DNA from: an uncultured Mycoplasmatota bacterium
GTDB taxonomy: Bacteria > Bacillota_I > Bacilli_A > RF39 > UBA660
Assembly (NCBI GenBank): GCA_947365915.1
Contig: CANAXT010000001.1
Coordinates: 7,347-71,346 of the forward strand
DNA: 64,000 nucleotides
Direction of reading: 5' to 3'
Part shown: positions 8,935 through 64,000 of the stretch, in pieces
How the letters are laid out: each line of letters starts with the position of its first letter
How positions within the stretch are numbered: position 1 is the first letter of the stretch
Program-made: the position numbers and the translations under genes
Notes under the pieces: model-generated
Seen by the model: only the letters and a program-made list of their open reading frames with translations
Database searches by the model: none
Told to the model about the DNA's origin: nothing

Positions 8935-10065
8935 TTATTCTGAATATTCACTTGTGATACCTAGGTATTCTTCCAATGTAATCCAGTTTCCTCCATTATA
9001 TAGTTTTTTGGATAAATCGCCAACATATCTTAGATGCCATGGTTCGTATTGGTATCCAGTAATATTTTCTTTTCCTTTTGGGTAACGGATAATAAATCCA
9101 TATTTATAAGCATTATTTTGAAGCCACTTTCCTTCCTTTGTTTCTCCAAAGCTGAATAATAAGCTATTGACATCGATGGCAAGTCCTGTTTGATGTTCTG
9201 AGTGTCCTGGTCTTGCGGAATAGGTGTCAGCTTCTGTTTTTCCGTCTCGTGCTACATAGTTGCTATAGAGTCTATTTTGGGTGTTATAGGAACGGAACCC
9301 ACTCACAATTTTTAGTTCAATTCCGTCTTCACTTGCTTTTTGTTTTAGTGTTTCAAAAGCTGATGTTAGTTCTGGTAGTAGTCCTGGTGCATAATTACTT
9401 GGTAAAGCATAGGTTTTATTAGCAATTAAAATGTTTCCAATATAATACATTCCATTTTTTACTTCAATAGAGTAACCTTTAGAAGTTTTTTTGGTTCCTT
9501 GATTTGGTTTTTCATTTTTTGGTTCTTCTATTTTTTTTGATATTTCTTTGACAATGAGTTTAAAAGATTCAGTTTTTTTATTTCCACTTTTGTCTTTTGC
9601 TTCATAGGTAAGATTGTATTCTCCCTTTTTGTGTACATCATACTCTCCAATTACATTGATTTCGATTTTGTCATGACTATTGTCTGTTACTTTAATTTCT
9701 TTTAATAAATCGATTTCTTCATTTTCATAGATTTCAAGATTTTTTACGTTTTCTATGGTTGGTTTTATGTTGTCTGTTACGGTTAAGTTTATTGGATACG
9801 TTTTCTTATTTACAGTAAAGTTTCCTTGATAGTTTCCTGTGTGATAAATATTTTCATTTTCTAGTTTTAAGTTTTTCCATGTTATTTTTGTCGTATTTGT
9901 TTTTTTTTCTAATTGATATTCTATTTTTGTTGGTACTTTTTCTCCTATTTTTAATTTGATTTCTTTTTGGTACGTTAATTCTTTTGGTTTTTTAAAAAAA
10001 AGTATTAGTGTAGTTACTACAATAATGAAGAAAAGTACTATTAAGATTTTTTGTTTCTTTTTCAT
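8935..10065 (-). CDS. membrane-anchored VanY-type D-alanyl-D-alanine carboxypeptidase (M15B) with an Ig-like spacer
   Basis: The C-terminus SGFRSY...SARPGHSEHQTGLAIDV...GFIIRYPKGKENITGYQYEPWHLRYVG carries the VanY/M15 Zn-ligand motifs. It has an N-terminal TM. The start was set at MKKKQKILIV, which has an RBS. Confidence 0.75.
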   Translation of the reverse strand: MKKKQKILIVLFFIIVVTTLILFFKKPKELTYQKEIKLKIGEKVPTKIEYQLEKKTNTTKITWKNLKLENENIYHTGNYQGNFTVNKKTYPINLTVTDNIKPTIENVKNLEIYENEEIDLLKEIKVTDNSHDKIEINVIGEYDVHKKGEYNLTYEAKDKSGNKKTESFKLIVKEISKKIEEPKNEKPNQGTKKTSKGYSIEVKNGMYYIGNILIANKTYALPSNYAPGLLPELTSAFETLKQKASEDGIELKIVSGFRSYNTQNRLYSNYVARDGKTEADTYSARPGHSEHQTGLAIDVNSLLFSFGETKEGKWLQNNAYKYGFIIRYPKGKENITGYQYEPWHLRYVGDLSKKLYNGGNWITLEEYLGITSEYSE

Positions 10066-10149
10066 TTTTTTCCTCTTTTCTACATTTATTATAACATGTT
10101 TTTTCAAAGAAAAATAATCATTTTCCATAATCATTTATTTTTTTAGATA

Positions 10150-10300
10150 TGATCGTCTTTTTACGACACTTTTCCCCTTATTTTGGACAAATTTAAACAA
10201 AAAAATCTTAATTCAATAAGAATTTTTTTATTTCAAACTAGTGCATGAGTAAACCACATTTAGGAATTCGTATTAAAGTTAATTTCTAAACTAATCATAA
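10150..10300. repeat. direct repeat copy 1 (about 80-150 bp): partial copy of the tRNA-Arg 3' flank plus the islet end sequence
   Basis: TTTGGACAAATTTAAACAAAAAAATCTTAATTCAATAAGAATTTTTTTATTTCAAACTAGTGCATGAGTAAACCAC... aligns to 12456-12600 and to 15214-15285. Confidence 0.8.
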
Positions 10301-10400
10301 CATTTGCAATCTTTATAATCAATAAAATTACAACAAAATAATAGTAGAATCGATAGAAATATTCTTCGGAAAATAATTGTAAAAATTTATTGATTATCAT
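10260..10400 (-). CDS. candidate small hydrophobic peptide (46 aa)
   Basis: MIINKFLQLFSEEYFYRFYYYFVVILLIIKIANVMISLEINFNTNS. A strong RBS AAAGGAG lies 7 nt upstream. The 3' end reads into repeat copy 1. It is not in the ORF track. Confidence 0.3.
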   Translation of the reverse strand: MIINKFLQLFSEEYFYRFYYYFVVILLIIKIANVMISLEINFNTNS

Positions 10401-10453
10401 TCTAGATCTCCTTTAAAAATTTTTATTTTATTTGGAAACATTAATAAAAATGA

Positions 10454-10882
10454 TCAAGTTATCGATTTAAAAGTATCTTTCGTTTTTCTAAAGTCTAAAA
10501 CTAAAAAACCATCATATTTTATTTTAATTAATTCATCATTCAATTCAAAAAAAGTTTCAACTTTATTATCTTTTAATTCTTTTATTTTAAGCATTATATT
10601 GCTTTCAATTTCTGTATCTAAAAATTTTTCTGTATCAAATACTTCAAAAAATACATCGTTTTCAAAAGGAATCTCATTATAATTCTTATTCAAAAAACAA
10701 TTTATATTATTATCTTTTTCAAATCCTGCATCTAAATTTATATAACCCTTTTCTTTATTATCAATATTAATAAATGTTAATTGAATATTGATATTATAGC
10801 CTTTAGTTCCATTTTTTGCATATGTTCCAACAAATATTTTTTGTTCAAGAACCTCAATATTTTTATTATCTATATACAACAT
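10454..10882 (-). CDS. hypothetical protein (islet A cargo)
   Basis: A 142-aa ORF that is extremely AT-rich. Confidence 0.4.
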   Translation of the reverse strand: MLYIDNKNIEVLEQKIFVGTYAKNGTKGYNINIQLTFINIDNKEKGYINLDAGFEKDNNINCFLNKNYNEIPFENDVFFEVFDTEKFLDTEIESNIMLKIKELKDNKVETFFELNDELIKIKYDGFLVLDFRKTKDTFKSIT

Positions 10883-11094
10883 AGATACTCCCCTCCTTTT
10901 ATATATTTCTATTACTTAGATACCATATCATTTATTATTAATCTTATTTAATAAAACTGGTGTTAGTATAGATATATAGACACAAAAAGCAAGCTAGCAG
11001 GTGTTATAGTACGTGAATATAGCATAAGTAATGCAGTTCTTTACAGATGGGTAAAAGAATATTTTTTTACTCATTTTTATCGCCTACTTAAAAT

Positions 11095-12183
11095 TTATCT
11101 ATCTATATATTTAACAAAGAAATCATCATCTTCAGAATAATGCATATCAATATCAATATTATTCATTTGAACAAATCCTTTATTTTTGTAAAATGTGTGT
11201 GCATTTTTCAATATTTGTCCACAAGCTAAATAAATCTTGTTTATTTTAGTATTAGATTTAATATACTCAATTAGATTCTCATATAATCTTGTTCCAACAC
11301 CAATATTTTGATACTTTTCATCAACATAAAAACGTTTTAATATACCATAATTATCATTTCTATTTTCTAGTGCTATAGTTCCTATAATTTGTTTCTTTTT
11401 TATATCAATGGCTAACCAAAAGTTTCCATTATTTTTTATATAATAATCATTTATTTTAGATATATCAGGTCTTACTTTGTATTTTCTACCTATAAATTTA
11501 TACATGCTTTCATTTATAAAATAACAAACTTCATCACTATATTTATCATCATAAGTGATAATTTTGACAAGCGCATTTTTATTAATATAGTCATAAATCT
11601 GTTGCCAATTATCAAAATTTTTGATTTTATTATTTAACTTCTTACTATTTCCAATGGTGAATGCTAAAATTCCTGAACTTGATACATTAGAGCAATTGCA
11701 TATGCTATCATCTATTAGTAAATCAATATCATTTTCCAAGCATACTCTTTTTTTATTTCTGGCATTAACTATTAATTTATCATAATATATATCATTTTTC
11801 TTTAACCAAACTTCACTTTGCATATAAGGATTATCGTGAAATTCACTATCTCTAGCAGTAATTATATATATTTCATTGCCTTCATCACGCAACTTTTTTA
11901 TTACTTCTACACAATGATTTCTAGGGGTAGCATTATTTGTTATTTTCTCCTGTATTGTACCTAAAAAATACTTCAATTCATTATAAGTGAAATGAAACAG
12001 TTTTTGATATACATTTCCATCATTGTATGCATCATTAATATTTAAATCTTCATTTTCTACATATTTGTTTAACGTTTTAGCATATTCAACTGCTGCATTC
12101 ATTAATTTGTCATTTATATCAGTTAAAGTGTTATCTATATCAATTCCTATTCTCAATTTAATCACTTCCCAATGCATAATCAT
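11095..12183 (-). CDS. fusion of a HAD-family 5'(3')-deoxyribonucleotidase-like domain and a GNAT acetyltransferase (islet A cargo)
   Basis: The N-terminal RIGIDIDNTLTD is the DxDxT HAD motif, and IYIITAR follows. The C-terminal RFYVDEKYQNIGVGTRLYENL is GNAT motif A. A more likely start is the TTG at 12156 (MRIGIDID...), which has RBS GGGAAGTGA. Confidence 0.6.
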   Translation of the reverse strand: MIMHWEVIKLRIGIDIDNTLTDINDKLMNAAVEYAKTLNKYVENEDLNINDAYNDGNVYQKLFHFTYNELKYFLGTIQEKITNNATPRNHCVEVIKKLRDEGNEIYIITARDSEFHDNPYMQSEVWLKKNDIYYDKLIVNARNKKRVCLENDIDLLIDDSICNCSNVSSSGILAFTIGNSKKLNNKIKNFDNWQQIYDYINKNALVKIITYDDKYSDEVCYFINESMYKFIGRKYKVRPDISKINDYYIKNNGNFWLAIDIKKKQIIGTIALENRNDNYGILKRFYVDEKYQNIGVGTRLYENLIEYIKSNTKINKIYLACGQILKNAHTFYKNKGFVQMNNIDIDMHYSEDDDFFVKYIDR

Positions 12184-12224
12184 TTATATCAATTATACCA
12201 AGAATCTCTAATAATCGATATAAA

Positions 12225-12600
12225 TGATACGCTATTACATTAAAAATGTTAAAAATAACTAGTATTCATTTATCATATAAAGACATTCAGATTTCAAAAT
12301 GAGAATGATTTTTTCAAAGTTAATCATTTATTTTTTGAGATAGGATAATTTTTTCGCGACACTTTTAGTAAAAAAAGCTATCCTAGCATACAAAATCATA
12401 AATGCTGAAAATTATCTATGCTTGAAAATAAATATATAGGCAACCGTCTTTTACCCTTTATTTTTGGCGAATTTAAGCAAAAAAAATTCTTAATTGAATA
12501 AGAATTTTTTTATTTCAAACTGGTGCATGAGTAAACCACGTTTGGGAATTCATATTAAGGTTAATTTCTACATTAATTATAACTATATAGTTTTTGTATA
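12225..12600. repeat. direct repeat copy 2 (about 375 bp), including the palindrome and the tRNA-flank copy
   Basis: It is about 90% identical to 15005-15285 over about 300 bp, and the last 60 bp match copy 1. Confidence 0.8.
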
Positions 12601-12799
12601 TTAAAAATGTCTCAGTTTTATTATTTTCTATTGATTTTAGCCATTCTTCATAGTAACAGCTATATTCTTCTATATCTCCCATACCTGAATATTGCCACTT
12701 AAGATTTTCATCGAATTTTTTAATTTCCTCTAAAAATTTTAAAAGTTCCTCCTTGTAAGATAAATCAGGTTTAATCAACTTAAAATCATTTCTTTTCAT
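12515..12799 (-). pseudogene. truncated gene remnant whose reading frame runs into repeat copy 2
   Basis: The N-terminal 75 aa are unique. The C-terminal INVEINLNMNSQTWFTHAPV is encoded by the repeat, which parallels the small ORF at copy 1. Confidence 0.35.
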
Positions 12800-13691
12800 T
12801 ATATTCCTTCTTAATATCGTTTAATGCAATTAATTGTAAATCTTTGCTATTTAAAAGTATGTTCCTATCTATTTCTAAACAATCTGCAACGTCAAACATT
12901 AGCCATGTGCTCATATATTTACTTGAATATAACATTTCTAAAAAGAGTTGCAATCCTTTTAATTTATCAATATTATGTTTTTCTTCTAGTGTTATTATAC
13001 AGCCCCTAACAAACAAATAAGAGCTTATATAAGAGAATCTAAACGAACAAGTTTTATTAGGTAGTAGTTCTGCTACCCCAAAGCTATTTTCTTCTTCCTC
13101 ATTTAGTAATTCTTCTACTGTCAATATTTGTTTTTCATCTAAATCAATTAAAGCTTGTGTATGATTTGTATATTGTTTTTGTAAATCTAGAATATAAAGT
13201 GGTATTGTTTCAGCAACTCCTTCTCCTAAAATTGTCGAATTTCTAAAAAAGTTGCTATGAAGTATATGAGATAATTCGTGTATTTCATTTTCAAAACAAG
13301 CAATGCTTTTTTTATTTTTTTCAAAATTCTCACACAAATTATCACTAATCCCAAAAGCAGAGGAAAAACCGTCTATATCAAAACAATTTACAGGTTTACC
13401 TCCACCATTTCCTTTGTTAAATTTATCTGGATATCCTAAAAGTTCTACATACTGATCAAATGGCACAATATATAAATAATAAATTGGCTTAGCATTAGAT
13501 GGATAATTTAAATTCAACTTATATAATAATTTATAACATTCATTTGTATATTCTAAATAATCATCGTAAAAACCTTTATCATATCTAATAGCTAATTCTT
13601 TACTTAATCTTACTTTGATATTTTCATTAAAAATTCTAAGTTCTGAATTTTTTATATATTCCCTTAAGTCATCTTTTTTTAATTCATTCAT
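12786..13691 (-). CDS. putative HExxH metallopeptidase-like protein (islet B cargo)
   Basis: It contains ENEIHELSHILHSNFFRNSTILGEGVAE (HExxH...E), which is similar to the motif of the core gene at 6857-7663. Confidence 0.4.
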   Translation of the reverse strand: MNELKKDDLREYIKNSELRIFNENIKVRLSKELAIRYDKGFYDDYLEYTNECYKLLYKLNLNYPSNAKPIYYLYIVPFDQYVELLGYPDKFNKGNGGGKPVNCFDIDGFSSAFGISDNLCENFEKNKKSIACFENEIHELSHILHSNFFRNSTILGEGVAETIPLYILDLQKQYTNHTQALIDLDEKQILTVEELLNEEEENSFGVAELLPNKTCSFRFSYISSYLFVRGCIITLEEKHNIDKLKGLQLFLEMLYSSKYMSTWLMFDVADCLEIDRNILLNSKDLQLIALNDIKKEYNEKK

Positions 13692-13713
13692 AAATTTCTA
13701 CCTTCTCTCATAA

Positions 13714-14595
13714 TTAATGAAATATTTTATTTAACAATCTATTAATTAATTCTTCTGATTCCATCTCATTAATGGCAAAACATTTTTTGCCTAAATCTTT
13801 AAATGATGAGCCACAGGAATATAATTTTTTTCTATCTATAATTATGAATCTATCATGAAATATATCAGTGTTTTTAAATTCTATATTAGAATACTGATTT
13901 TTGTATTTTTTCACCAAAATGTCATCAATATTTTTGGAAATAATGACTATTTTCTTATTTACATTTTTTAAAATCTTCAATAACTCTTTTCCAGCATAAT
14001 TATCAATAATAATTATTTCTTCTTTTGCAGTGTCAAATATATTTAATAAAAGCACATAAGCGTCAAATATTTGACCTTCAAAGAATATCGTATTAATTTT
14101 TTCTTTTTCTTGCATTTTATTAAATGTATTTTCTAGCTTTAATATTCTATTTTCGTGATTTAATAGCATTTCACTATTTACTAAACTGTTAGAAACATAC
14201 CTTCTTAATTTTACAAATGCATCAATGATTTGTACATTTACTTTAACTGCTATATCACTTTTAAGTAATCCAGATAACATCATTATTCCTTGTTCTGTTA
14301 AAACATAAGGTAAATATCTTACACCACCATGATTATTTTCACTTGAGATCGCAAATTGCGACCTCAAGTTATAAAATTCAGTCTCTGTTAATTGAAAGCA
14401 AAAAGTATCAGGAAATCTTTTAATATTTCTTTTAATAACCTCATTAATTCTTCTTGTTTCTACTTGATAAAGTTTAGCAACATCTGATGATAACATTACT
14501 TGAACCCCTCTTATTTCATATATCATTTTTTCTACATTATTATTAACATTAACAATATTATTATTTTCTTTTTCTTTAACTGTAATATTTGACAT
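13714..14595 (-). CDS. ORF6N/KilA-N-like DNA-binding domain protein (mobile-element associated)
   Basis: MIYEIRGVQVMLSSDVAKLYQVETRRINEVIKRNIKRFPDTFCFQLT...GGVRYLPYVLTEQGIMMLSGLLKSDIAV is an ORF6N domain. The C-terminal half is ORF6C-like. Confidence 0.65.
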   Translation of the reverse strand: MSNITVKEKENNNIVNVNNNVEKMIYEIRGVQVMLSSDVAKLYQVETRRINEVIKRNIKRFPDTFCFQLTETEFYNLRSQFAISSENNHGGVRYLPYVLTEQGIMMLSGLLKSDIAVKVNVQIIDAFVKLRRYVSNSLVNSEMLLNHENRILKLENTFNKMQEKEKINTIFFEGQIFDAYVLLLNIFDTAKEEIIIIDNYAGKELLKILKNVNKKIVIISKNIDDILVKKYKNQYSNIEFKNTDIFHDRFIIIDRKKLYSCGSSFKDLGKKCFAINEMESEELINRLLNKIFH

Positions 14596-15004
14596 TTAAA
14601 ACCTCCTTTCAAGCAATTTGTTTTAAGAAGCACCTAAAAAATATTTAATTTAGAGCAAAATTTCAAAATAAATCTTAAAGTATTTAGGCTCACACCTAAC
14701 TGTTTCTGTTTCTTAGGTACCTTGTTCATTCACTTTTCTATTCTTGATTCACCATCATACAAATTTTTTTATTTGTTCATATTCTTTCTTTTTATCTTCT
14801 AAGTAATAATTGTAAAGTAATCGGTTGCAATCAAATATTTTATGAATCAACTCTTTCCATTCTATGTTTAGAATAAATTCTAAATTTATGGGCTTTATGA
14901 ATTATCATTTTCATCACCTTTGTATAATCGATTATATCAAGAACAAATATTCACATCAATGCTTTTTTACAAATTTTTGTATGACTTTTCTATTCTATAA
15001 AAAT

Positions 15005-15280
15005 AACTAGTGTTCATTTATCATATAAAACAATTTAGATTGTAAAACGAGAGCGATTTTCTCAAAATCAATCATTTATTTTTTGAGATAGGATAGTTTT
15101 TTCGCGACATTTTCGCGACACTTTTAGTTAAAAAAACTATCCTAATATACAAAACCATAAGCATTGAAAATCATTTATGTTTGAAAAGAAATATATAGAC
15201 AACCGTCTTTTACCCTTTATTTTGGGCGAATTTAAGCAAAAAAAAATTCTTAATTTAATAAGAATTTTTTTATTTCAAAC

Positions 15281-15285
<5 letters not shown>
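15005..15285. repeat. direct repeat copy 3, the native 3' flank of tRNA-Arg
   Basis: It is homologous to copy 2 over about 280 bp. It contains the palindrome AGGATAGTTTTTT-CGCGACATTTTCGCGACA-CTTTTAGTTAAAAAAACTATCCT. Confidence 0.8.
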
Positions 15286-15357
<72 letters not shown>

Positions 15358-15401
15358 GATTTGTTCAAATGAACAAATAAATTATACATCAAATATTTTA
15401 A

Positions 15402-17246: not shown

Positions 17247-17330
17247 TCTTGTTCCTCCTCTAGTAACTCTAGTTAACTATATGATTAAAATAGAAAAATA
17301 TTCAAAAAAAGAAAATGGTTTTTCCATTTT

Positions 17331-18803
17331 CTAATTTATTTTTTTGTTTAACATATAAGCCCCACCAAATAATAAGATTGAGAAAAGTCCTAATAATAAA
17401 TATTGTGTAATTCCATCATAGGTATTTGGATTTTGCTCCTCCAAAATTGTTGTTTGTCCTGTTTTTTCTTCTGCTATCACATAAGTACTGAAATGATTTG
17501 TTTCAAATGTTGCATTTCCATATTCATCTAAAGTTATTTTGTGTTTCTCTAACGTATTATCGTTTTTAATATAATAAGCAACTAAGCTTTTTCCTATATA
17601 ATTTGTTCCTAATGGAATAGTAATTTTAAATAGGCCTGTCTCTAATTTTGTTATAAATTTTCCTAGAGTTTCAGAGTATAAATTAATATCAAATGCTCTA
17701 AAATTATCTGTCATGAGTACTTCTTTAATTTTATTATATTCTTGTGTATTTTTACCTACTTCACTTGCTTCTACTGTGGCATCTAATGGTACTTCTAAAC
17801 TATCAGTAGAAACTTGAATTGCGGTCTCACTACTTGTTTTTGTATATGTTGGTAGCTTCATTTCTTCTGGTTTTTTTATTACAACAAATGGATAAGTTTT
17901 TCCGTTTATTTTAATGTAATAGTAGTTTCCATCTGTTTGGGTTTGATCTACAAAAGTGTATTCATTTGGATCATTTAGGAAAGTATTTAAGTCGCCTCCA
18001 TAAGTAACTTCGATGTTTTTATTGGCAAAAGAATTTGATAATTTTTGCTTTATTGCCTCTATATATGCTTCCTTGGTAGAAACTGTATTAGCAGGAATAT
18101 ATATTACATTATTCAGTTTCACACTTGAAATTTCCCCATATCCATAAGCTGTACCTTTATAATAAACAATTGAACTACCTGTTTCATCATCTCCGATAGA
18201 TGGGTCTCTTTTCGCACTTACATTTATTTTAATAGAAATGCTATAATCTTTTGTGAAATTGATCACTTCTGGTACAAACATAATACTAGAAGTCAATGGG
18301 TTATATTCTGATCCTGTTGGAATCGTCAAATAATAATTTATCAAGTTTAAATCTTCTAGGATATAGTTTTCTAAGTTATTATTGAAATTCACCTTTTTGA
18401 TATTGTTCACAACTTGTTGGGCGTTATTTGCAATTGCCTCATTTCTAGACTGATATTTTAATTGAACAGTACGAGTTTCTATTGTTGTATAATTTCTTGA
18501 GTTCTCTGCATCTTGCTTTTCAATAGAAAGATTACATTGTTCTGGTGTTTGAAAGTCTATATTCCATCTATATCCATCATTCAATTTGAAGTTTTTTAGA
18601 TATATATCTAATATTGTGCGCTCCCAATCATTTTCATAAGAACTTTTTGTCTTATAAACTGGCTCTTTTATGGCATTTAATTCAATGATATTACTAGGTG
18701 CTGCCTTATTAAAGATTGGTGCAGTATATTCATCTGCTTTCGCACTTACAGAAAATCCTAAAAATATCAGTGCTGTAAAAAGTAAAATTTTTAAATTTTT
18801 CAT
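17331..18803 (-). CDS. surface protein, putative sortase B substrate (signal peptide; NPNTY motif + hydrophobic segment + KK tail)
   Basis: Signal peptide MKNLKILLFTALIFLGFSVSAKA. The C-terminus is ...EEQNPNTYDGITQYLLLGLFSILLFGGAYMLNKKIN. It is divergent from srtB. RBS AGGAGAG is present. Confidence 0.6.
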   Translation of the reverse strand: MKNLKILLFTALIFLGFSVSAKADEYTAPIFNKAAPSNIIELNAIKEPVYKTKSSYENDWERTILDIYLKNFKLNDGYRWNIDFQTPEQCNLSIEKQDAENSRNYTTIETRTVQLKYQSRNEAIANNAQQVVNNIKKVNFNNNLENYILEDLNLINYYLTIPTGSEYNPLTSSIMFVPEVINFTKDYSISIKINVSAKRDPSIGDDETGSSIVYYKGTAYGYGEISSVKLNNVIYIPANTVSTKEAYIEAIKQKLSNSFANKNIEVTYGGDLNTFLNDPNEYTFVDQTQTDGNYYYIKINGKTYPFVVIKKPEEMKLPTYTKTSSETAIQVSTDSLEVPLDATVEASEVGKNTQEYNKIKEVLMTDNFRAFDINLYSETLGKFITKLETGLFKITIPLGTNYIGKSLVAYYIKNDNTLEKHKITLDEYGNATFETNHFSTYVIAEEKTGQTTILEEQNPNTYDGITQYLLLGLFSILLFGGAYMLNKKIN

Positions 18804-18934
18804 AAACTCTCTCCTATCTGTTCTTAGTATATCATTTCCATAAAATTTGGTCAAGAAAAAAATTTTTTATTTTTGCCTGCCTTAAATAATTGATACTTTT
18901 AAAAAAAACGTGATATAATCAAAGCGGTGATTAC

Positions 18935-19753
18935 ATGTTCGAAAAAATAAAGAAAAAGAAAAAAACGTTTATTTTAATCATTATGATCATGAGTATGATT
19001 ACTTTACTATTTTCTATTTTTCAAATTATAAATTGGAAAAAAGATTCGAATAAAACAAAAAAGGAAACTGTTAAAATTGAAAAAATTACTGATATCAAGG
19101 AAAAAGAAGACTCTAGTAATACTGAAATTATTGGTCAAGATATTTCTAAAGATGATCCTTACTGGGATTACATCAAGATGAACTTAATGGATGTTAATTT
19201 TAAAGATTTAAAGAAAAAAAACAGTTCTGTTGCTGGATGGATCCAAGTGCTTGGAACAAATATCAATTATCCTTATGTTTGGACAACAGATAATGAGTAT
19301 TATTTGACACATTCATTTGATAAGTCTAAGAATTATGCTGGATGGGTATTTTTGGATTATCGAAATCATAAAAGTGAGTTGTCTAAAAATAATATTATTT
19401 ATGCTCATGGTAGAAAGGATCATACAATGTTTGGTTCTTTAAATAAAATTTTAACAAATGGTTGGTTCTTAAATTCTAAAAATCATGTAGTTCGTATGTC
19501 TACAGAAACAGAGAATACTTTATGGCAAGTGTTTAGTGTATATCGAATTCCAAATACTAGTGATTATATTCAAGTTAATTTTAATAATGATGATGAATTT
19601 TCAAAGTTTGGCTCGATGATATTATCAAGAAGTAAACACAATTTTAGTACTTCTATTGATGGTAATGATACGATTTTAACGCTTTCTACTTGTTATGATG
19701 ATTATGAAAAAGTAGTTTTACACGCAAAATTGATTAAAAGAGAAAAAAAATAA
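18935..19753 (+). CDS. srtB: class B sortase
   Basis: An N-terminal TM, then GWIQVLGTNINYPYV, YAHGRKDHTMFGSL (catalytic His), LTLSTCYD (TLxTC Cys) and a conserved Arg. An extended -10 TGaTATAAT promoter is present. Confidence 0.8.
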   Translation: MFEKIKKKKKTFILIIMIMSMITLLFSIFQIINWKKDSNKTKKETVKIEKITDIKEKEDSSNTEIIGQDISKDDPYWDYIKMNLMDVNFKDLKKKNSSVAGWIQVLGTNINYPYVWTTDNEYYLTHSFDKSKNYAGWVFLDYRNHKSELSKNNIIYAHGRKDHTMFGSLNKILTNGWFLNSKNHVVRMSTETENTLWQVFSVYRIPNTSDYIQVNFNNDDEFSKFGSMILSRSKHNFSTSIDGNDTILTLSTCYDDYEKVVLHAKLIKREKK

Positions 19754-19760
19754 CTTCATG

Positions 19761-21509
19761 TTATTTTTTTAATTCGATTTGTTCTTTTAGAAAAGATAAA
19801 AAGTCTTCTTTTTTTAGTATGATTGTTTCGTTGCTTCCATGTTTCCGATAACTGATGCTTCCTTCATCTCTTTCTTTGTCTCCTAAAATTAAGGTATATG
19901 GAATTTTTTTGGTTTGGCTTTCTCTCATCTTGTAGCTTAGTTTTTCATCTTTTGTGTCTAATTCTACTCGGATGTGGTTTTGTTCTAAATAGGTTTTGAT
20001 TTCTTCTGCATATGTTAAGTGGTACTCGTTATTAACTGGAATGATGTTTACTTGGGTTGGTGCTAGCCAAACTGGAAATACACCTTTGGTTTCTTCGATT
20101 AAGAATGCAATAAATCGATCTAATGATCCTAAAATGGCTCTATGAATGACTACTGGTCTTTTTTTGTTTCCTTCTTCATCAATATAAGTTAAGTCAAATC
20201 GTTCTGGAAGTTGATAGTCTAATTGAACTGTAGAAAGTGTGACATCATGACCAATTGCGCTTTTTACTTGAACATCTAGTTTTGGTCCATAAAATGCTGC
20301 TTCTCCTTCGGCTTCATAAAAGTCTGCATTTAATTCTTGTAATACTTCTCGAAGTTCGTTTTCGCTTTTTTCCCATAGTTCGTCATTTCCAAAGTATTTG
20401 TCTTTGTTTTCTTTGTCTCTTAGTGATAAGCGAAAGCGGTAATTTGTAAAGTCAAAATCTTTATATACTTCTAAAATTAAATCGACTACTGCTTTAAATT
20501 CTTCTTTGATTTGTTCTTCTGTACAAAAGATATGGGAATCATTTTGGGTAAATGCTCTTGTTCTTTCTATTCCACAAACGGCTCCACTTGCTTCATATCT
20601 AAAATCATTGGCAATTTCAGCAATACGAAGTGGTAAATCACGATAAGAATGAAGATTATTTTTAAACATCATCATGTGATGTGGGCAATTCATTGGTCTT
20701 AATACATAGGCTTCATTGTCTAGTTCCATAGCTGGAAACATGTCTTCTCTGTAATGGTCCCAATGTCCACTTGTTTTATATAAGTCAACACTTGCTAAAG
20801 ATGGTGTCATAACGTGTTTATATCCATGTTCATATTCTTTTTCAGTAATATAATCTACTAGTTTTTTACGAATTATAAATCCATTTGGAAGCCACATTGG
20901 AAGGCCTCTTCCAACAATATCTGAAAACATAAAGATGTCTAATTCTTTTCCGATTTTTCTGTGGTCTCTCATTTTTGCTTCTTCTAGCAATTTTAAATGT
21001 TCTTCTAAGTCTTCTGCTGTTTCAAAGCAGATTCCATAGATACGTTGTAACATCTTGTTTTTTGAGTCTCCTTTAAAGTAAGCGCCACTAAATTTTAGAA
21101 GTTTAAAGTGTTTTAGTTCTTTTACCGTTTCGACATGTGGTCCTCTACAAAGGTCTGTGAAGTCTCCTTGGGTATAACATGAGATATTTCCATCTTCCAT
21201 TCTAGAGATTAAATCTATTTTGTATGGATCATCATGAAACATGTCTAGTGCTTCTTTTTTAGAAATTTCATGACGAACAATTCGTTTTCCATCTTTGGCT
21301 ATTTTTTTCATTTCTTTTTCGATTTTTGGGATGTCTTCTTCTTTAATAACTTCATCTCCTAAATCGATATCATAATAAAATCCTTCTTCTATGACTGGTC
21401 CTACCCAGAATTTTGCATCTTTGTATAAGTGTTTTACAGCTTGTGCTAGAAGATGGGCACAGCTATGGTTTAATTTGTTTAATCTTTCATCATTTTTGAT
21501 ATTTTTCAT
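19761..21509 (-). CDS. thrS: threonine--tRNA ligase lacking the N-terminal TGS domain
   Basis: HSCAHLLAQAV (N2 editing-domain HxxxH), class II motifs and an anticodon-binding domain. The protein is 582 aa and begins directly at the N2 domain. Confidence 0.9.
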   Translation of the reverse strand: MKNIKNDERLNKLNHSCAHLLAQAVKHLYKDAKFWVGPVIEEGFYYDIDLGDEVIKEEDIPKIEKEMKKIAKDGKRIVRHEISKKEALDMFHDDPYKIDLISRMEDGNISCYTQGDFTDLCRGPHVETVKELKHFKLLKFSGAYFKGDSKNKMLQRIYGICFETAEDLEEHLKLLEEAKMRDHRKIGKELDIFMFSDIVGRGLPMWLPNGFIIRKKLVDYITEKEYEHGYKHVMTPSLASVDLYKTSGHWDHYREDMFPAMELDNEAYVLRPMNCPHHMMMFKNNLHSYRDLPLRIAEIANDFRYEASGAVCGIERTRAFTQNDSHIFCTEEQIKEEFKAVVDLILEVYKDFDFTNYRFRLSLRDKENKDKYFGNDELWEKSENELREVLQELNADFYEAEGEAAFYGPKLDVQVKSAIGHDVTLSTVQLDYQLPERFDLTYIDEEGNKKRPVVIHRAILGSLDRFIAFLIEETKGVFPVWLAPTQVNIIPVNNEYHLTYAEEIKTYLEQNHIRVELDTKDEKLSYKMRESQTKKIPYTLILGDKERDEGSISYRKHGSNETIILKKEDFLSFLKEQIELKK

Positions 21510-21511
21510 TT

Positions 21512-21910
21512 TTATTTCCTCTTTTCTATTATTTGGTTATCATATGGTGCTATTCTTTTACTTAATATTGTTTCGGCTTTTCCTCGAATTAAATCAAATT
21601 CTGCTTCTGTTGCTAGTCTCCATATTGCTTTAATGGGAAACAGAGCAAGTAATTCTTCTAGCGTTTCTAAATCGATTGGTCCTATATAATTTTGTAATTT
21701 TTTAGATAATGAATCACATTCATATTCTCTTAATCCTAGATCTGTTTCTTTTACTATCATTTTAGATAATTCTATGATGTCTAAATCGTATAATGTATAG
21801 GCAATTTCTGTTTTATAAGCTAGATATAATTCTTGACGTTCTTTTGTATCCATTTTTCTTGATTGTAATCTTAGCATATTAAAATTGACTCGTGGCTGAT
21901 ATTGTTTCAT
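21512..21910 (-). CDS. unknown 132-aa protein, T-box controlled and translationally coupled to thrS
   Basis: Strong RBS AAGGAGG immediately after the T-box terminator. The stop overlaps the thrS ATG (ATGA). It has no TGS-like sequence. Confidence 0.55.
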   Translation of the reverse strand: MKQYQPRVNFNMLRLQSRKMDTKERQELYLAYKTEIAYTLYDLDIIELSKMIVKETDLGLREYECDSLSKKLQNYIGPIDLETLEELLALFPIKAIWRLATEAEFDLIRGKAETILSKRIAPYDNQIIEKRK

Positions 21911-47639: not shown

Positions 47640-47850
47640 AATCACAATCCTATAAGGACGTGATTTGACGTGGTACCACCTTAATTTGTAGAGATCTCTA
47701 CCTTGAAACTGTAACGCGTTACCGTTATATGTTTGGCATATAAAACTCCAAGCTGAATTCATAAATGGATATGATCTATTTCCACCAACCATAGACTCTC
47801 TTTTCATATCTCTATTTATTACTACTTCTCTTCTTTGTTTTTCAAATTTA
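47640..47850 (-). promoter_or_regulatory. T-box riboswitch leader (Phe) with promoter
   Basis: T-box AAUUAAGGUGGUACCACG. Terminator AAUCACGUCCU-UAU-AGGAUUGUGAUU followed by U8. Specifier UUC-A. Promoter TTGTAA-17-TACAAT. Confidence 0.8.
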
Positions 47851-63754: not shown

Positions 63755-64000
63755 AACCACCTCCTTGAAATAAAAAAAGAGCAAAACATCCAAAAAGGAC
63801 GAATTGCTCGTGGTACCACCTTTATTTGTAATAATAGTTTATTACCTCTTATTGATAACGGATACTATCCGATTTAAAATCATCATTTGTAATTCATTAT
63901 TTTAATTTTGCTTATTTTCACCAGCCATAAGCTCTCTACAAATTATTTTAAAATAATTACTTTGAATGAATCACTTTTTAATTAACTGACTAGATTATAC
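63755..64000 (-). promoter_or_regulatory. T-box riboswitch leader (Tyr); the promoter -10 sits at the window edge
   Basis: Stem I AGAGAG. Specifier UAC-A in AAUUACAAAUG. T-box AAAGGUGGUACCACG. Terminator GAGCAA...UUGCUC followed by U7. A TATAAT lies at 63994-63999. Confidence 0.8.

What the first reader, a model, noticed from the sequence alone, without database searches (positions are those of the whole stretch)
17331..19753. Divergent class B sortase and a cognate surface protein with a non-canonical NPNTY sorting signal
srtB (18935-19753) has the TLxTC Cys (LTLSTCYD), the catalytic His (YAHGRKDH) and an N-terminal TM. The divergently transcribed 490-aa protein has a signal peptide and ends with ...QNPNTYDG-ITQYLLLGLFSILLFGGAYML-NKKIN. 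This is the motif, hydrophobic segment and basic tail arrangement of a sortase substrate. NPNTY is not among the described SrtB motifs (NPQTN, NPKTG, NAKTN, SPKTG). The substrate has no recognisable adhesin domain.
Basis: partly seen in the sequence, partly recalled or inferred. Interest (0 to 1): 0.55.

Follow-up and report, generated by a model that had tools for sequence, protein, structure and literature searches.

The report
Lys-variant sortase B with self-cleaving substrate
An uncultured gut bacterium carries a class B sortase beside the surface protein it most likely anchors; the pair is real but unusual, because the enzyme has lysine where sortases have their 'universal' catalytic arginine, the sorting signal has tyrosine after the cleavage site, and the substrate carries a recently described self-cleaving 'release' domain.

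Summary
srtB (18935-19753, +) and a divergently transcribed 490-aa secreted protein (17331-18803, -) are both present. That protein is the only ORF in 64 kb with a motif + hydrophobic segment + basic tail, and srtB is the only sortase.

The enzyme is class B by every test. It has Lys259 where B. anthracis R243 and C. difficile R217 sit. Lys is found in 118 of 119 close homologues.

NPNTYDG is one form of a lineage-wide signal, (E/D)-N/V/T-P-x-T-(Y/F/G/S)-D. In related gut Bacilli MAGs, 26 signal-bearing ORFs lie within 400 bp of srtB. Distant homologues of the substrate that carry (E/T)PKTG or NPQTGD signals sit next to other class B sortases. No searchable paper or curated anchor model covers the Tyr form.

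It is a GAIN-like MAIN autoproteolysis domain with an invariant HFS turn, a family described in a May 2026 preprint. The N-terminal 290 residues have no solved structural relative.

Likely mechanism: self-cleavage at F438|S439, SrtB cleavage at T461|Y462, wall anchoring of a 23-residue stub that holds a releasable 47-kDa ectodomain.

Verdict: a new variant of a known kind, of moderate interest.

The parts
18935..19753 (+). srtB: class B sortase, 272 aa
   Evidence: Pfam Sortase 32.7 bits. TIGR03064 class B sortase 151.9 bits against a cut-off of 153.75. All 15 PDB hits are SrtB. 38% identical to the BaSrtB catalytic domain.
18965..19033 (+). N-terminal membrane anchor of SrtB (TFILIIMIMSMITLLFSIFQIIN), preceded by KKKKK
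   Evidence: Translation. Read directly from the sequence.
19406..19408 (+). Catalytic His158 (IIYAHGRKD)
   Evidence: Aligns with the His of BaSrtB 'LYGHRM'. His in 119 of 119 close homologues.
19691..19693 (+). Catalytic Cys253 (LTLSTC)
   Evidence: Aligns with the BaSrtB and C. difficile SrtB TLSTC Cys. Cys in 119 of 119 close homologues.
19709..19711 (+). Lys259 (codon AAA) at the position of the conserved catalytic Arg
   Evidence: Aligns with BaSrtB R243 (GRLVVHAKL) and C. difficile R217. The engineered mutant chain 6kyd has Ala in the same column. Close homologues: K 118, R 1. 50%-identity representatives: R 97, K 34.
18804..18934 (.). Divergent intergenic region with promoter-like hexamers facing each gene (+ 18890-18919 TTGATA-18-TATAAT; - 18854-18826 TTGACC-17-TATACT)
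   Evidence: Consensus scan only. 19 sites found against 17.8 expected in the 3-kb region, so this is weak evidence.
17331..18803 (-). Substrate gene: 490-aa secreted surface protein (coordinates include the stop codon)
   Evidence: ORF. Identical public protein P0001 and 96 homologues. No Pfam, NCBIfam or PDB sequence hit.
18735..18803 (-). Signal peptide, residues 1-23 (MKNLKILLFTALIFLGFSVSAKA)
   Evidence: Translation. Helix 2-16 in the model. The cleavage site after AKA is inferred.
17859..18734 (-). N-terminal ectodomain, residues 24-315: two alpha+beta sub-domains of unknown function
17466..17858 (-). MAIN (GAIN-like autoproteolysis) domain, residues 316-446
17487..17495 (-). H437-F438-S439, predicted self-cleavage site (F|S)
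   Evidence: Invariant in 64 aligned homologues, together with F433, T435 and Y441. Lies in the turn between the last two strands, 430-435 and 440-445. HFS is intact in 86 of 96 homologues. Cleavage itself is inferred from YfkN.
17433..17465 (-). Linker KTGQTTILEEQ between the last MAIN strand and the sorting motif
   Evidence: pLDDT below 50 for residues 451-463. Translation.
17412..17432 (-). Sorting motif N458-P-N-T461-Y462-D-G464; predicted SrtB cleavage T461|Y462
   Evidence: P459 and T461 are invariant. Position statistics. The cleavage position is inferred from characterised SrtB enzymes.
17349..17411 (-). Hydrophobic segment ITQYLLLGLFSILLFGGAYML
   Evidence: Translation. Helix 465-489 in the model.
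17334..17348 (-). Basic tail NKKIN
   Evidence: Translation.
17310..17332 (-). Terminator-like hairpin that overlaps the stop codon of the substrate gene
   Evidence: Consensus scan: 9-bp stem followed by a T run.

Best explanation
This is a dedicated class B sortase and its cognate surface protein, in an uncultured, spore-forming gut member of the Bacilli.

Proposed sequence of events:
1. The 490-aa precursor is exported by its signal peptide and held in the membrane by its C-terminal hydrophobic segment and basic tail.
2. Its C-terminal MAIN (GAIN-like) beta-sandwich cleaves itself between F438 and S439 of the invariant HFS turn. The two pieces stay joined by beta-sheet hydrogen bonds.
3. 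SrtB (His158, Cys253, Lys259) cuts the signal (EEQ)NPNT|YDG after Thr461 and transfers the acyl intermediate to a peptidoglycan precursor.
4. The wall then carries a 23-residue stub, STYVIAEEKTGQTTILEEQNPNT. Its first seven residues form the last strand of the MAIN sandwich and hold the 47-kDa ectodomain (residues 24-438) non-covalently. Force or denaturing conditions can release the ectodomain.

Shown here: gene structure, class B homology, the Lys at the Arg position, conservation of the signal and its linkage to class B sortases, fold similarity of the C-terminal domain to GAIN/ZU5, and the invariant HFS.

Inferred: both cleavage sites, the wall linkage, that Lys259 supports catalysis, and release of the ectodomain. 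The biochemical role of the ectodomain is unknown.
For: Class B identity.

Lys at the Arg column, with His and Cys fully conserved, points to an active enzyme rather than a decaying one. K and R alternate within one clade in the same column: 66 K and 13 R among 79 loci.

Pairing:
- This is the only signal-bearing ORF and the only sortase in 64 kb, and they are 131 bp apart.
- 26 signal-bearing ORFs lie within 400 bp of srtB among the 79 related loci with a complete srtB. Only 9 of the 80 fetched loci show a tblastn match to this substrate. The signal stays with the sortase while the passenger protein changes.
- Distant homologues of the substrate with EPKTG, TPKTG or NPQTGDN signals are adjacent to three other class B sortases, at 161-202 bits on TIGR03064.
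- In assembly JBJEEA01 an unlinked homologue with NPKTYDG coexists with a Lys-type srtB.

Signal: P and T are invariant and P2' is Asp in 76% of tails. This matches the extended requirement of BaSrtB.

MAIN domain: together with the experimental description.
Against: - No biochemistry exists for any member of this sortase clade.
- Arg-to-Lys substitutions impair S. aureus SrtA (Marraffini et al. 2004; known to me from its title in the reference list and from memory). Activity of a Lys enzyme therefore cannot be assumed.
- About two thirds of related srtB loci show no adjacent substrate. None of the 13 Arg-type loci has one.
- The window protein itself gives no significant sequence hit to any MAIN-containing reference. 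The link goes through 10 of 24 relatives at E 5e-6 to 5e-3.
- Only 64 kb of the genome is visible, so another sortase or other substrates elsewhere cannot be excluded.
Confidence: 0.7

Rival explanations
1. The Lys-type enzyme is not a wall-anchoring transpeptidase. With Lys in place of Arg it may act mainly as a hydrolase or signal-removing protease that releases the protein, or it may be a catalytically weak pseudo-enzyme.
For: The catalytic Arg is replaced. The literature treats His-Cys-Arg as universal. Some representatives of the wider family have lost even the Cys (P0250, P0284, P0297, P0302, P0342), so degenerate copies do exist.
Against: His and Cys are retained in 119 of 119 close homologues and Lys in 118 of 119, at 60-70% overall identity. 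That is purifying selection on an intact active site. Substrates keep an invariant P and T, a hydrophobic segment and a basic tail. K and R interchange within the clade with no other visible change in the motif.
Confidence: 0.1
2. The adjacency is incidental. The protein is processed by a different housekeeping sortase encoded outside the window, or it simply stays membrane-anchored by its C-terminal helix.
For: Only 64 kb is visible. Four of seven substrate homologues that were looked up have no adjacent sortase. Curated anchor HMMs do not recognise the tail.
Against: The same arrangement recurs with different passenger proteins. Homologous passengers sit with other class B sortases. No LPXTG-type tail was found among 981 ORFs of the related loci. 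P459 and T461 are invariant, which a plain membrane anchor would not require.
Confidence: 0.08
3. It is a pilus-type class B sortase, as in Streptococcus pyogenes Spy0129, that polymerises the neighbouring protein.
For: Some class B enzymes build pili (PMC3019223, listed). Solved pilus-associated class B enzymes do appear among the hits (3psq, 4y4q).
Against: Those are the weakest hits (E 2e-15 and 5e-17, against 6e-34 for BaSrtB). There is a single substrate gene. It has no YPK-type pilin motif and no CnaB or pilin fold in the models.
Confidence: 0.03
4. It is a sporulation-specific sortase system, like class D B. anthracis SrtC, as suggested by the neighbouring spoIIIAH, gerE-like and gerM genes.
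For: The neighbours are SpoIIIAH, GerE and Germane-domain proteins.
Against: No class D model hits the enzyme. Synteny with spoIIIAH, gerM and gerE is absent from all 80 related loci, and thrS gave only three non-adjacent matches. The signal is not LPNTA.
Confidence: 0.03

Closest known systems
Bacillus anthracis SrtB / IsdC (NPKTG; extended DNPKTGDE)
   Same: Closest solved enzyme (E 5.7e-34, 38% identity). Single-pass N-terminal anchor, TLSTC Cys and the same His. The substrate gene is adjacent. The signal has N-P-x-T with Asp at P2' and acidic residues upstream. BaSrtB needs P5 Asp and P2' Asp.
   Different: Lys259 in place of R243. P1' is Tyr, not Gly. The substrate is not a NEAT or heme protein. 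No iron-uptake genes are nearby.
Clostridioides difficile SrtB ((S/P)PxTG, NVQTG), a class B enzyme that serves as the only sortase
   Same: A class B enzyme with no link to heme uptake, in a spore-forming gut Firmicute. Distant homologues of the substrate carry (E/T)PKTG or NVQTG-type signals and sit beside C. difficile-like class B sortases.
   Different: The C. difficile enzyme has Arg217. Its signals end in Gly and lack the conserved P2' Asp.
MAIN-domain proteins such as B. subtilis YfkN and the S. agalactiae IgA-Fc receptor BAC (Brogan & Rudner, bioRxiv 10.64898/2026.05.12.724683)
   Same: Order of parts: signal peptide, ectodomain, beta-sandwich with an HFS turn, short linker, sortase signal. 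Fold similarity to GAIN. Weak sequence similarity to the BAC C-terminal region.
   Different: Anchored through a class B signal rather than an LPXTG-type one. Much smaller (54 kDa precursor, against a 158 kDa average in the preprint). The ectodomain has no Pfam family or solved relative.
Eukaryotic GAIN, ZU5 and FIIND self-cleaving domains (adhesion GPCRs, PIDD, NLRP1/CARD8)
   Different: No detectable sequence homology. The bacterial domain is tethered to the wall and not to a 7TM or death-fold module.
NPXTG-anchored proteins of Ruminococcus (NCBIfam NF033846) and the generic LPXTG anchor model TIGR01167
   Same: Relatives with NPQTGDN tails score on these models (24.6 and 14.9 bits).
   Different: The Tyr-containing tails (NPNTYDG, NPKTYDG) score on none of them.

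Membership tests
Sortase superfamily (Pfam PF04203 / MEROPS C60) | Sortase domain detectable by profile | tested here: met
   PF04203 at 32.7 bits, above the 26.6 cut-off.
Sortase superfamily (Pfam PF04203 / MEROPS C60) | TLxTC signature with the catalytic Cys, and the catalytic His | tested here: met
   TLSTC with Cys253, and His158. Both align with the BaSrtB residues and are conserved in 119 of 119 close homologues.
Sortase superfamily (Pfam PF04203 / MEROPS C60) | Conserved catalytic Arg, the third member of the His-Cys-Arg triad (stated to be universal in PMC13257024) | tested here: not met
   Lys259 aligns with BaSrtB R243 and C. difficile R217. It is therefore filed as a variant and not as a canonical member.
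Class B sortase (NCBIfam TIGR03064) | Score at or above the curated equivalog cut-off | tested here: inconclusive
   151.9 bits against a cut-off of 153.75. No other sortase class model reaches E <= 0.1.
Class B sortase (NCBIfam TIGR03064) | Closest characterised and solved relatives are SrtB enzymes, not class A, C, D, E or F | tested here: met
   All 15 PDB hits at E <= 0.01 are SrtB from B. anthracis, C. difficile, L. monocytogenes, S. aureus, C. perfringens and streptococci.
Class B sortase (NCBIfam TIGR03064) | Explicit placement in a class A-F phylogeny | not tested
   Reference sequences of classes A and C-F could not be fetched. Class assignment rests on the HMM and PDB ranking.
Class B sorting signal (NPQTN, NPKTG, NAKTN/NPKSS; from memory, Comfort & Clubb 2004 give NP(Q/K)(T/S)(N/G/S)(D/A)) | Three-part C-terminus: motif, hydrophobic segment, basic tail | tested here: met
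   NPNTYDG, then a 21-residue hydrophobic segment, then NKKIN.
Class B sorting signal (NPQTN, NPKTG, NAKTN/NPKSS; from memory, Comfort & Clubb 2004 give NP(Q/K)(T/S)(N/G/S)(D/A)) | N-P-x-T core with D or A at position 6 | tested here: met
   N458-P-N-T461 and D463. P and T are invariant and P2' is Asp in 76% of homologue tails.
Class B sorting signal (NPQTN, NPKTG, NAKTN/NPKSS; from memory, Comfort & Clubb 2004 give NP(Q/K)(T/S)(N/G/S)(D/A)) | Small or polar residue (N, G or S) at position 5 (P1') | tested here: not met
   Tyr462. Y or F at P1' in 34% of homologue tails and in 22 of the 40 signal-pattern ORFs in the srtB loci (a few of the 40 are probably spurious).
Class B sorting signal (NPQTN, NPKTG, NAKTN/NPKSS; from memory, Comfort & Clubb 2004 give NP(Q/K)(T/S)(N/G/S)(D/A)) | Recognised by a curated anchor or sorting-signal HMM | tested here: not met
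   No NCBIfam hit at E <= 10 for the NPNTYDG or NPKTYDG tails. A Gly-type relative does hit TIGR01167.
Class B sorting signal (NPQTN, NPKTG, NAKTN/NPKSS; from memory, Comfort & Clubb 2004 give NP(Q/K)(T/S)(N/G/S)(D/A)) | Cleaved after Thr by the cognate SrtB and linked to peptidoglycan | not testable with these tools
   Requires a peptide cleavage assay and cell-wall mass spectrometry.
MAIN (microbial GAIN-like autoproteolysis) domain, bioRxiv 10.64898/2026.05.12.724683 | GAIN_B-like beta-sandwich fold | tested here: met
MAIN (microbial GAIN-like autoproteolysis) domain, bioRxiv 10.64898/2026.05.12.724683 | Conserved H-x-(S/T) motif in the beta-turn before the last strand | tested here: met
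   H437-F438-S439 is invariant in 64 sequences and lies between strands 430-435 and 440-445. HFS is intact in 86 of 96 homologues.
MAIN (microbial GAIN-like autoproteolysis) domain, bioRxiv 10.64898/2026.05.12.724683 | Architecture: signal peptide, ectodomain, MAIN, cell-surface anchor | tested here: met
   Matches the description read.
MAIN (microbial GAIN-like autoproteolysis) domain, bioRxiv 10.64898/2026.05.12.724683 | Sequence relationship to a validated MAIN domain (the authors used PSI-BLAST from YfkN) | tested here: inconclusive
   10 of 24 family members hit the C-terminal region (~946-1040 of 1127) of the GBS BAC profile, best E 4.7e-6. The window protein alone does not.
MAIN (microbial GAIN-like autoproteolysis) domain, bioRxiv 10.64898/2026.05.12.724683 | Ser-dependent self-cleavage with the fragments remaining associated | not testable with these tools
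   Needs expression of residues 316-450 with and without S439A.
Pilus-assembling sortase system | Pilin motif (YPK) and pilin-type folds in the substrate, with several pilin genes | tested here: not met
   No YPK motif. No pilin or CnaB fold. A single substrate gene.
Class D sporulation sortase (LPNTA) | Class D HMM match and an LPNTA-type signal | tested here: not met
   No class D model hit. The signal is NPNTY. The sporulation neighbours are not syntenic elsewhere.

The most novel reading that the evidence does not exclude
Lys-type class B sortases form a large, unstudied and catalytically competent subgroup with a His-Cys-Lys active site. Together with (N/V/T)PxT-(Y/F)-D-G signals, which curated models do not detect, they may be the main or only protein-anchoring route in a whole lineage of uncultured gut Bacilli. 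If the aromatic P1' preference is real, the enzyme would offer a ligation specificity orthogonal to LPXTG and NPQTN enzymes. Here it is coupled to one of the smallest MAIN-domain release modules, which carries an ectodomain of unknown fold.
Probability: 0.35. Interest if true: 0.65.

Novelty: new variant of a known kind. Interest (0 to 1): 0.5.

Why it matters
- Mechanism. Sortase mechanism papers treat His-Cys-Arg as invariant. A clade in which Lys is fixed, and where K and R swap between close relatives, is a natural experiment on what that residue does.
- Annotation. The Tyr/Phe-containing signal is invisible to current anchor models. Surface proteomes of these abundant gut MAGs are therefore being under-annotated.
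- Engineering. A sortase that accepts NPxT|YDG could be an orthogonal tool for protein ligation.
- MAIN domains. The substrate extends the newly described MAIN self-cleaving release module to class B anchoring, and to a small two-part protein that would be easy to test.

Tried and rejected
- Sequence searches of the substrate against Pfam, NCBIfam and the PDB gave nothing. A profile of its C-terminal domain against the PDB and Pfam gave only noise; one member gave a lone FIIND hit at E 0.0095.
- Foldseek of the full model against the PDB gave nothing at E <= 0.001. The afdb50 library was unavailable.
- The third homologue search, with the MAIN profile, returned only proteins under 245 aa and added little.
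- Exact-sequence look-ups of the window protein and of P0001 found no contig, so the sample of origin is unknown.
- I looked for co-variation between the residue after the cleavage site (Y/F versus G/S) and the loop after the sortase Cys, and between the K/R type and P1'. Lys-type enzymes sit next to both Y/F and G/S signals. Arg-type close relatives had no adjacent substrate to compare. No rule emerged.
- A sporulation link was rejected because the synteny is not conserved.
- Literature searches for the Tyr/Phe motifs and for natural Lys sortases found nothing relevant.
- Promoter-like hits are not enriched over shuffled sequence and are given only as annotation.
Full report
**1. What is there**

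The window is low-GC (about 30%). It comes from a spore-forming Firmicute: SpoIIIAH, GerE-like and Germane-domain genes lie just downstream of the finding, with thrS on the other side and a VanY carboxypeptidase nearby.

At 18935-19753 (+) there is a 272-aa ORF. It has a Lys-rich N-terminus, one membrane helix, IIYAHGRKD and LTLSTC.

At 17331-18803 (-) there is a 490-aa ORF, 131 bp away and divergently oriented. The longest reading of this ORF starts at TTG 18854. The ATG form is identical to a public protein (P0001) and begins with a textbook signal peptide. It ends in NPNTYDG, ITQYLLLGLFSILLFGGAYML and NKKIN.

A six-frame scan shows this is the only ORF in 64 kb with such a three-part tail. 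phmmer finds no other sortase or paralogue. A hairpin with a T run overlaps the stop codon. Promoter-like hexamers face both genes, but such hexamers are not enriched over shuffled sequence.

**2. The sortase is class B but has Lys in place of the catalytic Arg**

Evidence for class B:
- Pfam Sortase scores 32.7 bits.
- In NCBIfam only class B models appear. TIGR03064 scores 151.9 bits, just under its 153.75 cut-off.
- All 15 solved-structure hits are SrtB enzymes, from B. anthracis 5.7e-34 down to the streptococcal pilus-type enzymes at about 1e-15.
- It is 38% identical to the BaSrtB catalytic domain.

So 'divergent' is a mild description, and class C is excluded.

The HMMER alignments put query 'EKVVLHAKLIKR' against BaSrtB 'GRLVVHAKLVKR' and C. 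difficile 'ARMVIHGRL'. The engineered C. difficile mutant chain 6kyd shows Ala in the same column, which marks it as the catalytic Arg.

In a MAFFT alignment with BaSrtB the query residues are His158, Cys253 and Lys259 (codon AAA). Counts in the three catalytic columns:

| Set | His column | Cys column | Arg column |
|---|---|---|---|
| 119 close homologues (60-70% identity) | H 119 | C 119 | K 118, R 1 |
| 135 representatives at 50% clustering | H 129 | C 130 | R 97, K 34 |

Among 79 genome loci with a complete srtB, 66 are Lys-type and 13 Arg-type, with otherwise the same local motif.

A 2026 paper states that all sortases share His-Cys-Arg (PMC13257024). I found no paper on natural Lys variants. 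Conservation of His, Cys and Lys argues for an active enzyme, but that is an inference.

**3. The sorting signal**

Of 96 substrate homologues, 92 have an xPxT motif ahead of a hydrophobic segment and basic tail. Position frequencies:

| Position | Residues |
|---|---|
| P4 | N 64%, T 20% |
| P3 | P 100% |
| P1 | T 100% |
| P1' | G 46%, Y 30%, S 9%, F 4% |
| P2' | D 76% |
| P5, P6 | mostly E or D |

NPNTY occurs in 9 tails, NPKTY in 9 and NPQTY in 5. The window's motif is therefore one state of a family-wide signal, (E/D)-N-P-x-T-(G/Y/F/S)-D-(G/N)-I.

The P2' Asp and the upstream acidic residue match what B. anthracis SrtB requires in DNPKTGDE (PMC11987632).

None of NPNTY, NPKTY, NPQTY, NPKTF, NPQTF or VPNTY appears as a sortase motif in the searchable literature. 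The Tyr-type tails hit no curated anchor model. A Gly-type relative hits TIGR01167 and, weakly, the Ruminococcus NPXTG model.

**4. Is the pairing real?**

A genome-collection scan with SrtB found 211 relatives, of which 80 loci were fetched. All are uncultured gut Bacilli MAGs, for example Candidatus Aphodocola, Candidatus Onthocola, 'Mycoplasma sp. CAG:776' and 'Clostridium sp. CAG:780'.

- In 79 loci with a complete srtB, 26 ORFs with an xPxT-x-D signal lie within 400 bp of it, always on the opposite strand. Among all 40 signal-pattern ORFs found in those loci (a few clearly spurious), P1' is Y 13, F 9, G 7, V 4, L 3, S 2, E 2, and P2' is Asp in 36.
- Only 9 of the 80 loci show a tblastn match to the window substrate. 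The signal travels with the sortase while the passenger protein varies.
- No LPXTG tail was found among the 981 ORFs scanned.

Looking from the substrate side:
- P0022 (EPKTG) and P0093 (TPKTG) are each followed by a class B sortase with a canonical Arg. The surroundings look like a mobile element: resolvase, integrase, TraG-like and ToxN genes.
- P0063 (NPQTGDN) is preceded by a third class B sortase, 43% identical to the window enzyme.
- Four other homologues have no adjacent sortase.
- One of those four, P0007 (NPKTYDG), is in the same assembly as a Lys-type srtB on another contig.

Synteny with thrS and the sporulation genes is not conserved.

**5. The substrate**

AlphaFold2 with 64 homologues gives pLDDT 89.1 and pTM 0.81. 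Foldseek against the PDB finds nothing significant.

- UNC5b ZU5;
- several further adhesion-GPCR GAIN domains.

All of these belong to the class of beta-sandwiches that cleave themselves at an H-hydrophobic-S/T turn.

The family's invariant residues are F433, T435, H437, F438, S439 and Y441 ('FETNHFSTY'). They lie exactly in the turn between the last two strands.

A literature search then found a May 2026 preprint by Brogan & Rudner (10.64898/2026.05.12.724683). It defines MAIN domains as GAIN-like bacterial domains that cleave between F and S of HFS. This was shown by Edman sequencing of B. subtilis YfkN and by Ser-to-Ala mutants. The fragments stay associated. The domains sit between a variable ectodomain and a sortase signal, and the ectodomain can be released.

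Sequence support:
- 10 of 24 members of the window's domain family hit the C-terminal region (positions ~946-1040 of 1127) of the S. agalactiae IgA-Fc-binding BAC profile, best E 4.7e-6. BAC is one of the proteins whose MAIN domain the preprint tested.
- The window protein alone does not reach significance.
- HFS is intact in 86 of 96 homologues, and the Ser-to-anchor-Thr distance has a median of 22 residues.
- A profile of the domain finds 13 MAIN-plus-class-B-signal proteins of 457-929 aa in the srtB loci. Three carry HLS, and one carries DKFS with the His lost.

**6. Mechanism**

Steps marked 'inferred' have not been shown here.
1. The protein is exported.
2. It self-cleaves at F438|S439 (inferred by homology).
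3. SrtB cleaves at T461|Y462 and transfers the protein to peptidoglycan (inferred).
4. A 23-residue wall-linked stub remains. Its first strand holds the 47.3-kDa, pI 5.0 ectodomain non-covalently.
5. Shear or denaturation can release the ectodomain, as proposed for MAIN proteins.

**7. Novelty**

The system works like B. anthracis SrtB/IsdC or C. difficile SrtB. By homology it belongs in class B. It differs in three ways:
- It fails one defining feature of sortases, the catalytic Arg.
- It fails one feature of the described class B signals, a small residue at P1'.
- Its substrate joins a MAIN module to class B anchoring.

All three features are lineage-wide rather than unique to this window. 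I rate it a new variant of a known kind, of moderate interest. Its value lies mainly in the natural His-Cys-Lys active site and in a signal that annotation pipelines miss.

Noticed in passing
window 10000-15400; tRNA-Arg(tct) 15281-15357 (-); ORF 13714-14595 (-): A stretch with very low GC (22-27%, against about 30% elsewhere) ends at a tRNA-Arg gene. It contains an ORF6N/Rha-type phage regulatory protein, a GNAT-HAD fusion and two ORFs with no family. It could be an integrated element or a prophage remnant.
   Followed up: partly
window 15177-15380 (+): This 67-aa ORF overlaps the tRNA-Arg gene on the opposite strand and is almost certainly spurious.
   Followed up: no
window 47651-47844 (-) and 63792-63983 (-): Two T-box leaders score above the Rfam gathering threshold (116 and 97 bits). 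No T-box was detected upstream of thrS at 19761-21509, where a 132-aa ORF with no family (21512-21910) abuts it instead.
   Followed up: no
P0250, P0284, P0297, P0302, P0342 (representatives of the SrtB-like family): These relatives keep the ...HAKL end of the domain but have lost the catalytic Cys (TLITSY, TISSNY, TISTKV, TLSTNF, TISTNN). They may be pseudo-sortases.
   Followed up: no
P0217 (615 aa), P0218, P0223, P0227 and many others: Many close sortase relatives are predicted with N-terminal extensions of 100-350 residues ahead of the membrane anchor. Pfam finds nothing in the extensions. They could be real cytoplasmic domains or gene-calling artefacts.
   Followed up: partly
L082 1-9473 and L083 1-11461: Homologues of the substrate with (E/T)PKTG signals, together with their own Arg-type class B sortase, sit among resolvase, integrase, TraG-like ATPase, ToxN and HTH genes. 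This protein-plus-sortase cassette appears to travel on mobile or conjugative elements.
   Followed up: partly
L071 4375-5748 (-); L038, L047, L055: Variants of the self-cleavage motif occur next to srtB. Three proteins have HLS. One has DKFS, with the catalytic His replaced, and is possibly a non-cleaving MAIN domain.
   Followed up: no
window 8935-10134 (-): A VanY-type D-Ala-D-Ala carboxypeptidase is fused to a bacterial surface Ig-like domain. This shows the organism makes peptidoglycan even though related MAGs are labelled 'Tenericutes' or 'Mycoplasma'.
   Followed up: no
L004 7510-12744; L013 4447-9934; L069 3740-8250: Some related genomes carry two tandem paralogous substrates (855-891 aa, and 447-461 aa) beside one srtB, with near-identical sorting signals. 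This points to local duplication of passenger genes.
   Followed up: no
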